Of a stretch of DNA of 64,000 nucleotides, positions 27,224 through 30,414 are shown piece after piece. The notes beneath the pieces are model-generated. The model was not told where the DNA came from. It searched no databases and saw nothing but the letters and a program-made list of their open reading frames with translations. A program made the translations under genes and the position numbers. This DNA comes from Dictyostelium discoideum (lineage: Eukaryota), in assembly GCA_000004695.1 (NCBI GenBank), contig CM000154.2, positions 3,488,001 to 3,552,000 of the forward strand, written 5' to 3'. Position 1 is the first letter of the stretch. The number at the start of each line of letters is the position of its first letter.

Positions 27224-28551
27224 ATGATTAATGAGGAAGAGGAGGATGACGAGTTTTTAATAAACAATACACAATTTAAACCACCAGATAGATCAACTTC
27301 AGCGCCACCATCCTTAACAAGATTGAATAGTAATTCATTATTTTCATTTAGAGCAAATGAATTTATCAATGATATTAGAGCAGATGAACAATACTATGAG
27401 TTTTATATCAATCATGTTAACCAAGATAAATTACCGCCACCATTAGAAATTCAACAATCTTTTTATAATGCACCTGAACCTGAATCTGATTTCTCTGGTA
27501 CTTCAAGAAATGCTTTCTTCCAAGAGGTTTGTATTTATTTATAGGGTAATATGACTAGAGAAAAATATATTAATATTTTATTTTTTATTTATTTTTACTA
27601 CTATAGTATTTCAAACAACCAGTATTGAATATTCCACAACCACAACAATTTTATCAAAAACCTCCAATCCCACAAACACAACAAACACAACAACCACAAC
27701 AATATTATCAACCAATACCACAACAACCGCAAATTCAACAACCAATTCCACATAAACCACCACAACAACAACAGCAACAACAAACACCACAACCACCATA
27801 TCTACAAAGACAACCATCTTTTGGTAATGCACCAATTGGTTATCCATTACCACAACAGCAACAACAGGCCTATCAACAACAGCAACAACAATTACTTCAA
27901 CAACAGCAACAACTATTACAACAACAACAACAGCAACAACAACTACAGCAACAGCAATTATTACAGCAACAATTACAACAACGTCAATTATTACAACAAC
28001 AGCAACAACGTCAACAACAGCAACAACAACAATATTTACAACAGCAACAACAATTTAATAATAGTAATAATAATAATAATAGCAGCCATCATCATCATCA
28101 ACAACAACAACAACAACAGCAACAACAACAAAATGGTAACAATGATTTATGGGCTGTTCAAAGTGAATTATATTCATTGAAAATGAATGATGGAAAACCA
28201 GATGACTATATCGTAAAATCATCATTTGATGTTGCTTTCTCAACTGTTAATCAATTTTTCGATGAACCACGTAGTAACAGTAACAGTCTTCCAAGAAGCA
28301 CATCAAACTCTTCATTGAATCAAATTTTTGAGCCACAACTTAGAAATAGTAATATTAATAGTAACAACAACAACAACAACAGCAATAATAATAATAATAA
28401 ACAACCACCACAACCCCCACAATCAAATGGCGTTAGCGGTAATGGCGCTATAGTTAGACCAATTGCAAAAGTTGGTAATAATCTTTTACATTCACCAATT
28501 GATTTAAATCAATTTTCAAACTTTAATGGAAATATGAACGGTACTACATCA

Positions 28552-28609
<58 letters not shown>

Positions 28610-30414
28610 GTAATAATAATAGTAATAATAATGGCAATGGTAACAGCAACAGCAATAGCAGTAATAATAATAATACAGTACATCCAGCTAGAACACCAAC
28701 CCCACCACAATCTAGTGGCAATTCAACATCACCATCACAACATTGTAGATATTTCACCCAAGGTTATTGTAGTAAAGGAAGTAAATGTAACTTTGTACAT
28801 GACAGTGAAACTTCCTCTGAAAAGGTCGAAGAAAAACAACAAAATGTATCACCAATTACATCCACAAATAATAATAATAATAATAGTAGCAGTAGTAATA
28901 ATAACACCAATACTAATAATAACCACAACAATAGTAATAATAATAATAATAATAGCGTAAATAATAGTAATAGTAATAGTAATAGTAGTAATAATAATAA
29001 TAACAATAATAATAATAATAACAATAATAATAATAATAGTAATAATAATAATAGTAATAATAGTAATAGTAATAATAATAATAAACAAAATAATAGAAAT
29101 AATAATAACAATAATAATAACAGTAATAATAATAACAATAATAGCAATAATAATAGTACAAATAGTAATAATACACAAAATAATAATAATAATACACAAT
29201 CAAGAAAAAGTTTACCAGTTGAACTTCAACCAAGTAATATTATGCAATTAACAAAAGTTCAACCACATAGTAAACAACAACAAGGTGGTAGAGGTAGAAA
29301 TAATCCAATGATGCAAAATCAACAACAAATGGCACAACTTTCTATTACTAGCCCACCAATTACAGATCCAATCACAAGTGATATAAGTAAAAAGATTGAT
29401 TTGATTGCAAACAAGACCTATACATCTATTGATCAAGTAATGGGATCCATTTATCCATTGTGTCGTGATCAACATGGTTGTCGTTTCCTTCAAAAGAAAT
29501 TGGAGGAGAGTGACCTTCAATTGACAGAGATTATCTTTAAGGAAGTTTGTGATTATATGTTGGAGTTGATGACCGATCCATTTGGTAACTATTTATGTCA
29601 AAAACTTTTAGAGCATTGCAATGATCGACAACGTCTTACTATCATTGAAAAGGTTGGTACTGACATTGTTCGTATCAGTATGAATATGCATGGTACACGT
29701 GCCGTTCAAAAGATGATTGAATACCTCACCACACCTGAACAGATTCAATTGATTAAGCGTTCCCTCAAGGATAGTGTCGTACCTTTGATTCAAGATCTCA
29801 ATGGTAATCATGTCATTCAAAAATGTTTAAATAAATTATCACCACAAGATAATCAATTCATCTATGATGCTGTCTCTAGTGATGGTAGTTGTATTGCCGT
29901 TGCCACCCACAGACATGGTTGTTGTGTCCTTCAAAGATGTATCGATCATGCTTCAGAGTCTCAAAAACTTCAATTGATTCAAGAGGTCATTGCAAACTCT
30001 TTGGTTTTGGTTCAAGATCCATATGGTAACTATGTGGTACAATATGTTTTGGACCTCCCATTCCAAGGCTTGGCCACCGAAATGGCAAAACGTTTCGTTG
30101 GTCATGTTCCAATCTTGGCAACTCAAAAATTCTCTTCAAATGTTGTCGAGAAATGTTTACATGTTGCCGATGCAATCACTCGTGGTTACTTAATTCAAGA
30201 AGTCATAGATTATGATAACCTTTTACACCTTTTACAAGATCCTTACGCAAATTATGTAATCCAAACTTCTTTAACAATCTCTGAACCACATCAACATACT
30301 AAATTGGTTGAAGCTATTCGTCCACATTTACCATTATTAAAGAATACTCCATATGGCAAACGTATTCAAAATAAAATTATTAAAGAAGGAAGAGATACTT
30401 ATAATTTTAATTAA
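27224..30414 (+). CDS. Pumilio/PUF-family RNA-binding protein with a CCCH zinc finger and long poly-Q/poly-N regions, 2 exons (27224..27526, 27607..30414)
   Basis: Exon 1 (MINEEEEDDEF...AFFQE) ends in phase 0 at a GTTTGT donor (27527). The acceptor is ..ctatag at 27606. Exon 2 begins YFKQPVLNIPQ, and the track 'M' at 27625 is a TTG codon. C-terminus has eight PUF repeats, including FGNYLCQKLLE, HGTRAVQKMIE, NGNHVIQKCL, HGCCVLQRCIDHA, YGNYVVQYVLD, SSNVVEKCL and YANYVIQTSL. The segment CRYFTQGYCSKGSKCNFVH fits C-x7-C-x5-C-x3-H. All minus-strand track ORFs within 27601..30193 are antisense repeat artefacts. Confidence 0.75.

What the first reader, a model, noticed from the sequence alone, without database searches (positions are those of the whole stretch)
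27224..30414. PUF RNA-binding protein carrying a CCCH zinc finger and ~600 aa of poly-Q/poly-N
A canonical 8-repeat Pumilio homology domain at the C-terminus sits in the same polypeptide as a classic C-x7-C-x5-C-x3-H finger (CRYFTQGYCSKGSKCNFVH). The two are separated by long (CAA)n and (AAT)n-encoded tracts. Joining two different RNA-binding modules in one protein is unusual, and I am not aware of it as the standard PUF architecture.
Basis: partly seen in the sequence, partly recalled or inferred. Interest (0 to 1): 0.5.

Follow-up and report, generated by a model that had tools for sequence, protein, structure and literature searches.

The report
Dictyostelium Puf118: Pumilio protein with zinc finger
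This is almost certainly the published Dictyostelium gene Puf118, a Pumilio-type RNA-binding protein. Its extra CCCH zinc finger is real and turns out to be an ancient, widely conserved but unstudied partner of this Pumilio subfamily, not a local oddity.

Summary
Window 27224..30414 (+) is a two-exon gene with one 80-nt intron. It encodes a 1036-aa protein with eight Pumilio repeats at the C-terminus and one C-x7-C-x5-C-x3-H finger at aa 481-499.

The predicted mass is 118.0 kDa. The gene layout matches the published construct coordinates of D. discoideum DDB_G0289987, "Puf118" (Hotz & Nelson 2017). That protein is a Puf4-like factor that binds UGUA-type elements in the 3'UTRs of chemotaxis mRNAs and localises them to the cell front. 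So the gene and its PUF function are already known.

The finger is not mentioned in that paper or in three PUF family surveys. It is also not a Dictyostelium peculiarity:
- The order "N-terminal motif, single CCCH finger, PUM-HD" recurs in other dictyostelids, many Amoebozoa (mostly transcriptome-derived), chytrids and other early fungi, and the holozoan Pigoraptor.
- It also occurs in streptophytes (the liverwort Riccia and the alga Closterium), with identical RNA-recognition residues.
- It is absent from the closest Dikarya and Mucoromycota homologues.

The poly-Q and poly-N tracts are insertions shared only with other dictyostelids. Only poly-N lies between the finger and the PUF domain.

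The finger's role is inferred: probably an auxiliary RNA contact next to the PUF site.

Verdict: a known gene whose conserved finger is unstudied. Interest is moderate to low.

The parts
27224..27526 (+). Exon 1 (101 codons, starts at the ATG)
   Evidence: It reads in phase 0 into exon 2. GC is 32%, against 13% in the flanking DNA.
27281..27451 (+). Conserved N-terminal motif, aa 20-76 (R-STSAPP-L .. SLFAFR .. DIR---YY-FY .. KLPPPLE)
   Evidence: It is conserved in the orthologue alignments. A profile search of 1.84 billion representatives gave 156 hits at E<=1e-3. Of the 42 hits of 400 aa or more, 34 have at least four PUF repeats by a regex count. The motif matches the liverwort protein P0199 at E 2e-9.
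27527..27606 (+). Intron, 80 nt, GT..AG, 15% GC
   Evidence: Sequence reading, and the frame is restored across it. There is no transcript evidence from this organism.
27607..30414 (+). Exon 2 (935 codons plus the TAA stop at 30412..30414)
   Evidence: The open frame is uninterrupted. The other two forward frames carry 29 and 209 stops.
27607..28173 (+). Q-rich low-complexity region, aa 102-290, mostly CAA codons
   Evidence: 54% Q plus N; 135 of 149 Q codons are CAA. It is an insertion relative to the non-dictyostelid orthologues.
28225..28257 (+). Small conserved island FDVAFSTVNQF, aa 308-318
   Evidence: It aligns with DVAYSTANQ in P0003 and P0005, and with the dictyostelid orthologues P0153 and P0162.
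28744..28800 (+). Single CCCH zinc finger C-x7-C-x5-C-x3-H, aa 481-499
   Evidence: Pfam CCCH models match. The ligands are invariant in 47 homologues. The closest solved relative is CPSF30 zinc finger 2. AF2 pLDDT is 72-87.
28801..29331 (+). N-rich disordered linker between the finger and the PUF domain, aa 500-676, mostly AAT codons
   Evidence: 56% Q plus N; 159 of 189 N codons gene-wide are AAT. AF2 pLDDT is mostly below 50. The linker is much shorter in the non-dictyostelid orthologues.
29428..30369 (+). Pumilio homology domain, eight repeats, aa 709-1022. The RNA-recognition triplets are at 29473-29493, 29581-29601, 29689-29709, 29800-29820, 29914-29934, 30022-30042, 30130-30150 and 30244-30264.
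   Evidence: Pfam PUF x8, E 1.6e-64. The best PDB match is yeast Puf4, E 9e-82. AF2 pLDDT is 96-98. Foldseek to Puf4 gives 45% identity and TM 0.74-0.77. The recognition triplets are CRQ, NYQ, TRQ, NHQ, CCQ, NYQ, SNE, NYQ.

Best explanation
The locus is the Dictyostelium discoideum gene DDB_G0289987, published as Puf118. It encodes a Puf4-type Pumilio protein.

Shown or published:
- The C-terminal eight-repeat PUM-HD reads a UGUA-type Pumilio-binding element in 3'UTRs.
- In D. discoideum the RNA-binding domain alone binds the Lst8, PikF, Pla2, SgcA and actin mRNAs and places them at the front of chemotaxing cells.

Shown here:
- The roughly 680-aa N-terminal part is mostly disordered Q/N-rich filler shared only with other dictyostelids.
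- Embedded in it are three conserved islands: an N-terminal motif, a short FDVAFSTVNQF island, and one CCCH zinc finger.
- The order motif, finger, PUM-HD is shared with orthologues in Amoebozoa, early-diverging fungi, a holozoan protist and streptophytes. It is therefore an old design that the Dikarya and Mucoromycota homologues seen here lack. Animals also lack it, on textbook knowledge.

Inferred (about 45% likely): the finger is a weak, flexibly tethered single-strand RNA contact. It would read a few A/U-rich nucleotides beside the PUF site and so sharpen affinity or target choice. That is what Nanos does in trans for Drosophila Pumilio.
For: Identity with Puf118:
- The predicted mass is 118.01 kDa; the paper gives 118 kDa.
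- The paper's 'Puf domain = bp 2109-3188 of the genomic sequence' falls in my model on codon 677 in phase 0, and on the last sense base of a 3191-bp gene.
- The paper reports 46% identity to the Puf4 RNA-binding domain; Foldseek gives 45%.
- The neighbouring genes carry Dictyostelium-typical ComC and FNIP domains.

Puf4-type reader:
- The best PDB hit is Puf4.
- All eight recognition triplets are identical to Puf4's, including the Thr in repeat 3 and the Cys-Cys in repeat 5. These are the positions altered in the Puf4 T650C/C724R specificity mutant.
- The model superposes better on Puf4 and Puf5 (TM 0.74-0.77) than on PUM1 (TM 0.61-0.66).

The finger is real and conserved.

Ancient architecture:
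- Dictyostelids Acytostelium and Tieghemostelium.
- Amoebozoan transcriptomes: Gocevia, Luapelamoeba, Mastigella, Cochliopodium, Protostelium, Clastostelium.
- Balamuthia, Planoprotostelium and Mastigamoeba.
- Chytrids, Basidiobolus and Sorochytrium.
- The holozoan Pigoraptor.
- The liverwort Riccia sorocarpa, on a 46.9-Mb contig, and Closterium.

- Riccia's PUM-HD is 54% identical to this one, with the same triplets, finger and N-terminal motif.

RNA-binding inference: the finger's closest solved relatives are RNA-binding fingers, namely CPSF30 ZF2, then Yth1, TIS11d/TTP and MBNL1.
Against: - No D. discoideum sequence or transcript could be retrieved to confirm the identity or the intron directly. 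The exact protein is not in the searchable collection.
- The published work shows that the PUF domain alone is enough for mRNA binding and localisation. The finger is therefore not required for the core activity.
- Single CCCH fingers can be protein-binding or purely structural.
- At least one orthologue, from Stenamoeba, has lost the finger. So have the Dikarya and Mucoromycota homologues.
- Nothing here measures RNA binding by the finger.
- The Pfam CCCH scores for the full-length protein are marginally below the curated cut-offs.
Confidence: 0.8

Rival explanations
1. The finger is a protein-interaction or regulatory module, not an RNA contact. It might recruit an effector such as a deadenylase or translation factor, or link Puf118 to the F-actin-dependent machinery that holds it at the cell front. 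It might also fold back on the PUF domain to regulate it.
For: The PUF domain alone binds and relocalises target mRNAs, whereas polarised localisation was shown for the full-length Puf118-GFP and depends on F-actin. The finger is a lone unit on long disordered tethers, alongside two other conserved short motifs that look like docking sites. From general knowledge, some CCCH fingers, such as CPSF30 ZF1, act in protein contacts.
Against: The closest solved relatives by sequence are RNA-contacting fingers. Aromatic residues are kept at finger positions 3-4 and 17 across the family. From memory, these are the positions equivalent to CPSF30 His70 and Phe84, which stack on RNA bases. No partner protein is known.
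Confidence: 0.3
2. The three-module layout arose several times by independent domain shuffling or horizontal transfer, so it is not ancestral.
For: The distribution is patchy. The finger is absent from Dikarya, Mucoromycota, animals and one amoebozoan (Stenamoeba). Among Archaeplastida I saw it only in streptophyte lineages. No formal phylogeny was made.
Against: All lineages have the same module order. The finger sequences are near-identical (CRY[FY]-QGYCSRG--C-[FY]-H). The same N-terminal motif is present, and so are the same eight recognition triplets. The Riccia gene sits on a 46.9-Mb chromosome-scale contig, which argues against contamination.
Confidence: 0.1
3. Gene-model artefact: in vivo the finger region is spliced out or belongs to a separate transcript, so the mature protein lacks it.
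For: No transcript data from this organism were available. The (AAT)n tracts have intron-like composition, 8-14% GC.
Against: - The frame is open for 935 codons in a 20%-GC genome.
- The finger region is 37% GC.
- There are no in-frame AT-rich GT..AG candidate introns in exon 2.
- Dictyostelid orthologues have the same continuous layout.
- Transcriptome-assembled orthologues keep the finger and the PUF domain together.
- The predicted full-length mass equals the published 118 kDa.
Confidence: 0.03
4. The CCCH pattern is a chance match inside low-complexity sequence and does not fold or bind zinc.
For: The full-length Pfam scores are just below the curated cut-offs.
Against: The finger passes the cut-offs when scanned in isolation. 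The ligands are invariant in 47 homologues from several eukaryotic supergroups. AF2 gives confident local structure. The finger has non-repetitive, exon-like composition.
Confidence: 0.02

Closest known systems
Dictyostelium discoideum Puf118 (DDB_G0289987), Hotz & Nelson 2017, PMC5678099
   Same: It is almost certainly the same gene. The mass is 118.0 kDa, the gene is 3191 bp, and the published PUF-domain coordinates 2109-3188 fall in frame and on the last sense base. It is also the closest relative of yeast Puf4.
   Different: Nothing is known to differ. The paper never mentions the finger: 'zinc' and 'CCCH' occur zero times in the main text and the held supplement.
Saccharomyces cerevisiae Puf4p (PDB 3BX2, 4DZS)
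   Same: The PUM-HD is 45% identical. All eight recognition triplets are identical, including Thr in repeat 3 and Cys-Cys in repeat 5. The predicted fold superposes on Puf4 better than on PUM1. From knowledge of the Puf4 literature, I expect the same UGUA-N-A-N-UA style target.
   Different: The closest Dikarya and Mucoromycota homologues lack the CCCH finger (the N-terminal motif was not examined in them). From general knowledge, yeast Puf4 itself also has no finger. Nine-nucleotide recognition was not tested here.
Drosophila Pumilio with Nanos (PDB 5KL1)
   Same: This is a functional analogy only. A PUF domain reads the core element while a zinc-finger module contacts nucleotides beside it and tightens binding.
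   Different: Nanos is a separate protein with two CCHC fingers acting in trans. Here there is a single CCCH finger in the same chain. Whether it touches RNA at all is untested.
CPSF30/CPSF4 zinc finger 2 (PDB 6FUW, 6DNH)
   Same: It is the best sequence match for the finger, with the same C-x7-C-x5-C-x3-H spacing and similar aromatic and basic positions. It is an adenine-binding RNA finger that reads the AAUAAA signal (established knowledge).
   Different: CPSF30 has five tandem fingers working in pairs inside a large complex. This protein has one isolated finger.
Yeast Puf1/Jsn1 and Puf2 (PUF plus RRM)
   Same: They set a precedent for a PUF protein carrying a second, unrelated RNA-binding module upstream of the repeats (general knowledge, not tested here).
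   Different: The second module is different (an RRM, not a CCCH finger), and they belong to a different PUF subfamily.

Membership tests
PUF / Pumilio-FBF family | Eight tandem PUF repeats forming a PUM-HD | tested here: met
   Pfam PF00806 finds eight stretches, E 1.6e-64. The AF2 model is all-helical with pLDDT 96-98. Foldseek hits to PUM1, Puf4 and Puf5 have probability 1.00.
PUF / Pumilio-FBF family | Canonical RNA-recognition triplets (positions 12, 13 and 16), with SNE in repeat 7 and NYQ in repeats 8 and 6 for a 5' UGU | tested here: met
   The triplets are CRQ, NYQ, TRQ, NHQ, CCQ, NYQ, SNE, NYQ.
PUF / Pumilio-FBF family | Sequence-specific binding to UGUA-containing RNA | not testable with these tools
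   This is reported for the Puf118 RNA-binding domain by RNA immunoprecipitation and by mutation of the binding element. It cannot be measured here.
Puf4 subfamily | Closest solved relative is Puf4, with the Puf4-specific Thr (repeat 3) and Cys (repeat 5) at the positions mutated in the T650C/C724R specificity switch | tested here: met
   Puf4 scores E 9e-82, against PUM1 at 9e-67 and Puf3 at 2e-49. HGTRAVQ and HGCCVLQ are present. Entry 3bx3 is titled with the T650C/C724R mutant.
Puf4 subfamily | Nine-nucleotide binding site with a flipped base | not testable with these tools
   I infer this only from the identical triplets and the Puf4-like superposition (TM 0.74-0.77).
CCCH (C3H1) zinc finger, Pfam PF00642 / PF18345 | C-x(6-9)-C-x(4-6)-C-x3-H ligand spacing | tested here: met
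   C481-x7-C489-x5-C495-x3-H499.
CCCH (C3H1) zinc finger, Pfam PF00642 / PF18345 | Profile score above the curated gathering threshold | tested here: inconclusive
   The full protein scores 19.6 against 20.5, and 26.5 against 29. The isolated 57-aa segment scores 24.4 against 20.5, and 31.2 against 29. Orthologues P0199, P0203 and P0155 pass as full-length proteins.
CCCH (C3H1) zinc finger, Pfam PF00642 / PF18345 | Zinc ligands conserved among homologues | tested here: met
   C17, C25, C31, H35 and G23 are invariant, and G28 is conserved in at least 90%, in 47 aligned homologues chosen for carrying the finger. 56 of the 120 top homologues carry the finger.
CCCH (C3H1) zinc finger, Pfam PF00642 / PF18345 | Zinc coordination and RNA binding | not testable with these tools
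   This needs biochemistry.
TTP/TIS11 tandem zinc finger family | Two C-x8-C-x5-C-x3-H fingers 18 aa apart, each with an (R/K)YKTEL lead-in | tested here: not met
   There is only one finger in 1036 aa. Its spacing is C-x7, and no YKTEL lead-in is present.
Torus domain (PF16131, Cwc2/RBM22) | Full ~109-residue Torus domain around the finger | tested here: not met
   In the isolated 57-aa piece the match covers only profile positions 64-102 of 109, which is the embedded finger. In the full protein the match scores 20.9, below the cut-off of 29.
Identity with D. discoideum DDB_G0289987 (Puf118) | Same size, same gene length, and same position of the published PUF-domain construct | tested here: met
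   118.01 kDa against 118 kDa. Base 2109 is codon 677 in phase 0, and base 3188 is the last sense base.
Identity with D. discoideum DDB_G0289987 (Puf118) | Residue-for-residue sequence identity with the database entry | not testable with these tools
   The exact sequence is not in the searchable collection. The paper's supplement lists no Puf118 primers.

The most novel reading that the evidence does not exclude
The single CCCH finger is an in-cis, Nanos-like RNA clamp. The tri-modular layout (N-terminal motif, CCCH finger, Puf4-type PUM-HD) would then be the ancestral form of this Pumilio lineage, dating to around the last eukaryotic common ancestor. Animals, Dikarya and possibly angiosperms would have lost the finger and come to rely on trans-acting partners instead. 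Dictyostelium Puf118 would be the ready-made experimental system for testing bipartite PUF recognition.
Probability: 0.25. Interest if true: 0.6.

Novelty: already known. Interest (0 to 1): 0.33.

Why it matters
Puf118 is one of the few PUF proteins with a clear cell-biological role: it localises chemotaxis mRNAs to the cell front. That role has been studied mainly through the isolated RNA-binding domain.

A conserved finger and a conserved N-terminal motif have travelled with this PUF domain from amoebae to liverworts. This means the textbook 'PUF domain plus unstructured N-terminus' picture omits parts that selection has kept for over a billion years.

If the finger contacts RNA, target prediction from the eight-repeat code alone is incomplete for this subfamily. 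If it binds proteins, it is a candidate for the unexplained step that anchors Puf118 at the front of the cell. Either way, the tests are simple with existing Dictyostelium tools.

The Q/N tracts themselves are ordinary for this genome.

Tried and rejected
- **Exact-sequence look-up.** The 1036-aa product is not in the collection.
- **Length ceiling in the first homologue searches.** They returned only proteins under about 1.75 times the query length. The dictyostelid orthologues and the source protein were therefore missed at first, and the exon-1 profile returned only short fragments. The word-index-free search recovered the long proteins.
- **Puf118 primers.** I looked for them in the paper's supplement, to confirm identity by direct matching. 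None are listed.
- **Hidden introns.** I scanned exon 2 for in-frame GT..AG segments of 60-500 nt with at least 88% AT. There were none.
- **TTP-like tandem finger and Torus domain.** Both were rejected, because there is a single C-x7 finger and only a partial Torus profile match.
- **Literature.** I searched for any paper describing PUF plus CCCH in one protein. The term sets were: Dictyostelium + PUF + CCCH; Pumilio + CCCH zinc finger + domain architecture + PUF; PUM-HD + C3H1; PUF domain + CCCH + same protein; and APUM + CCCH + Pumilio. I also checked three PUF family surveys (Tam 2010, Wang 2018, Najdrova 2020). Nothing relevant turned up.
- **P0057.** It is labelled Gloeochaete, a glaucophyte transcriptome, but it looks amoebozoan in sequence. 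I did not count it as evidence for Archaeplastida.
- **Autoregulation.** I read the roughly 390 nt after the stop codon by eye for a Puf4-type element. None was obvious.
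Full report
**What is there**

The window is about 20% GC. The flagged interval is a clean gene on the + strand:
- Exon 1 is 27224..27526, starting at the ATG at 27224.
- An 80-nt GT..AG intron of 15% GC occupies 27527..27606.
- Exon 2 is 27607..30414, ending in TAA.

Exon 2 is open for 935 codons, while the other two forward frames carry 29 and 209 stops. The product is 1036 aa.

Pfam finds eight PUF repeats (E 1.6e-64).

In the full-length, compositionally biased protein the CCCH models fall just short of Pfam's cut-offs (26.5 against 29; 19.6 against 20.5). On an isolated 57-aa segment they pass (31.2 against 29; 24.4 against 20.5).

**Corrections to the description**

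The protein is 18% N and 14% Q. Q is encoded by CAA in 135 of 149 cases, and N by AAT in 159 of 189.
- The poly-Q region (aa 102-290) lies upstream of the finger.
- Only the N-rich linker (aa 500-676) lies between the finger and the PUF domain.
- About 140 residues are in homopolymer runs of five or more.
- The low-complexity stretch contains conserved, non-repetitive islands.

**Which gene it is**

The neighbouring genes include two ComC-like proteins, an FNIP-repeat protein, an acyl-CoA oxidase and a myotubularin. ComC and FNIP domains are typical of Dictyostelium.

A literature search found Hotz & Nelson 2017 (PMC5678099). They describe five D. discoideum PUF genes and characterise DDB_G0289987, which they named Puf118 for its 118-kDa mass. 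Three things match:
- My model has a predicted mass of 118.01 kDa.
[quoted passage not shown] In my model, base 2109 is the first base of codon 677, and base 3188 is the last sense base of the 3191-bp gene.
- They report 46% identity to the Puf4 RNA-binding domain. Foldseek reports 45%.

I therefore treat the locus as Puf118, with one reservation: I could not compare sequences directly. The exact protein is not in the collection, and no Puf118 primers are listed in the supplement.

According to the paper:
- The Puf118 RNA-binding domain binds Pumilio-binding elements in the 3'UTRs of the Lst8, PikF, Pla2, SgcA and Act1 mRNAs.
- Those mRNAs localise to the cell front.
- Mislocalising the domain drags the mRNAs with it and impairs chemotaxis.

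The words "zinc" and "CCCH" do not occur in the paper or in its held supplement.

**The PUF domain**

The best solved relative is yeast Puf4 (E 9e-82). PUM1 follows at 9e-67, Mpt5 at 7e-53 and Puf3 at 2e-49.

The recognition triplets of repeats 1-8 are CRQ, NYQ, TRQ, NHQ, CCQ, NYQ, SNE, NYQ. They are identical to those readable in the Puf4 alignment. They include the Thr of repeat 3 and the second Cys of repeat 5, the two positions changed in the Puf4 T650C/C724R specificity mutant (the title of entry 3bx3).

The AlphaFold2 model has pLDDT 96-98 over the domain. It superposes better on Puf4 and Puf5 (TM 0.74-0.77, rmsd 3.2-4.4 Å) than on PUM1 (TM 0.61-0.66).

From the published PUF code, this predicts a 5'-UGUA...UA-3' site of the Puf4 type. 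That agrees with the paper's choice of element.

**The finger**

AlphaFold2 gives the finger pLDDT 72-87. Most of the linker between the finger and the PUF domain scores below 50, so the finger is a small folded bead on a disordered string.

Its nearest solved relatives by sequence are RNA-contacting fingers. First is CPSF30 zinc finger 2, with the same C-x7-C-x5-C-x3-H spacing. Then come Yth1, TIS11d/TTP, MBNL1 and the Cwc2/RBM22 fingers.

It is not a TTP-type tandem finger, because there is only one finger and no lead-in motif. It is also not a Torus domain: the Torus match on the isolated piece covers only the embedded finger, profile positions 64-102 of 109.

**Is the combination peculiar to this gene? 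No.**

Among the 120 best homologues of a query made of the finger plus the PUF domain, 56 carry one finger of the same spacing, 55-196 aa upstream of PUF repeat 1. The consensus is CRY[FY]-QGYCSRG[DE][RK]C-[FY]-H. Here the distance is 241 aa because of the poly-N insert.

The four ligands and one glycine are invariant, and a second glycine is conserved in at least 90%, in 47 aligned homologues that I had selected for carrying the finger.

Named sources are:
- **Dictyostelids:** Acytostelium subglobosum and Tieghemostelium lacteum.
- **Other Amoebozoa:** Balamuthia, Planoprotostelium, Mastigamoeba, Pelomyxa, Vannella, Stereomyxa, Gocevia, Luapelamoeba, Mastigella, Cochliopodium, Protostelium and Clastostelium. 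Most of these come from transcriptome assemblies, which is cDNA-level evidence that the finger and the PUF domain share one mRNA.
- **Early-diverging fungi:** Basidiobolus, Rhizophlyctis, Gonapodya, Homolaphlyctis, Gorgonomyces and Sorochytrium.
- **Holozoa:** Pigoraptor chileana.
- **Streptophytes:** the liverwort Riccia sorocarpa, on a 46.9-Mb contig, and Closterium.

The Riccia protein is 54% identical over the PUM-HD. It has the same eight triplets, an aligned finger and the same N-terminal motif.

The closest Dikarya and Mucoromycota homologues lack the finger, and so does the Stenamoeba orthologue. That animal and yeast PUFs lack it is textbook knowledge.

The simplest reading is one old origin followed by repeated loss. 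I did not build a tree, so independent fusion remains a minor rival.

**Other conserved parts**

The orthologue alignment shows that the Q and N tracts are insertions, shared only with other dictyostelids. Two further islands are conserved.

The first is an N-terminal motif, aa 20-76, almost all of exon 1. A profile of it, searched against 1.84 billion representatives, found 156 proteins at E<=1e-3. Of the 42 hits of 400 aa or more, 34 have at least four PUF repeats by a regex count, and 14 of those 34 also carry the finger. One hit, from the apicomplexan Neospora, has the motif and the PUF domain but no finger.

The second is a short FDVAFSTVNQF island at aa 308-318.

**How it most likely works**

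Shown or published: the PUM-HD reads a Puf4-type element, and this is enough to bind and move target mRNAs.

Inferred: the finger is a weak, tethered single-strand RNA contact that reads A/U-rich bases beside the PUF site. This would raise affinity or narrow target choice, in the way Nanos clamps Pumilio onto RNA in trans. Three things support it:
- The finger's relatives are RNA-binding fingers.
- The finger is conserved together with an unchanged PUF code.
- Aromatic residues are kept at finger positions 3-4 and 17. From memory, these correspond to CPSF30 His70 and Phe84, which stack on adenines. That is a lead, not a test.

I put this at about 45%.

The main rival, at about 30%, is a protein-docking or regulatory role. 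One possibility is the unexplained F-actin-dependent anchoring of full-length Puf118. Splicing artefact and chance motif are each unlikely (2-3%), for the reasons given above.

**Novelty**

The gene and its PUF function are published. Both domains are visible in the precomputed public annotation of orthologues.

What I could not find in any searchable paper is a mention of a CCCH finger inside a PUF protein, or of its wide distribution. I ran five term searches and checked three PUF family surveys.

So the finding is a correct description of a known gene. Its unusual-looking feature is ancient, conserved and unstudied, rather than a novelty of this locus.

Noticed in passing
window 27281..27451 (aa 20-76 of the PUF protein): A conserved N-terminal motif (R-STSAPP-L .. 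SLFAFR .. DIR---YY-FY .. KLPPPLE) accompanies this PUF subfamily in Amoebozoa, streptophytes (Riccia, Closterium) and an apicomplexan (Neospora). No Pfam family matches it and its function is unknown. It may be an effector-docking site.
   Followed up: partly
window 28225..28257 (aa 308-318): A short island, FDVAFSTVNQF, sits inside the Q/N-rich region. It is conserved in dictyostelid and closely related orthologues (DVAYSTANQ).
   Followed up: no
window 4521..7445 and 9217..12546 (+): Two tandem paralogous ORFs of 974 and 1109 aa share the same domain order: DUF7035, DUF7034, DUF7949, then the ComC supersandwich domain. This looks like a local duplication of a Dictyostelium ComC-like gene.
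   Followed up: no
window 35290..37011 (-), 37827..39203 (-), 44204..47518 (-): The neighbouring ORFs encode an acyl-CoA oxidase, an FNIP-repeat protein and a myotubularin-like phosphatase. Large ORFs at 17805..20045 (-), 23088..24671 (+), 33273..34475 (-) and 56496..60014 (+) have no Pfam match at E<=1e-4.
   Followed up: no
P0014 / P0126 (Stenamoeba stenopodia transcriptome): This orthologue keeps the N-terminal motif and the PUF domain, but the finger position reads DYPALGNTPYFSLE with no cysteine ligands. This looks like a secondary loss of the finger within Amoebozoa.
   Followed up: partly
P0057 (labelled Gloeochaete wittrockiana, MMETSP0308): A protein attributed to a glaucophyte transcriptome has the full amoebozoan-style layout and sequence. 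It may be contamination of that dataset by an amoeba, so I did not use it as evidence for Archaeplastida.
   Followed up: no
window 26154..26452 and 26560..26805 (+), upstream of the gene: The 5' flank is 13% GC, with long homopolymer and trinucleotide runs that give spurious poly-L, poly-I and poly-K ORFs. This is ordinary Dictyostelium intergenic sequence.
   Followed up: no
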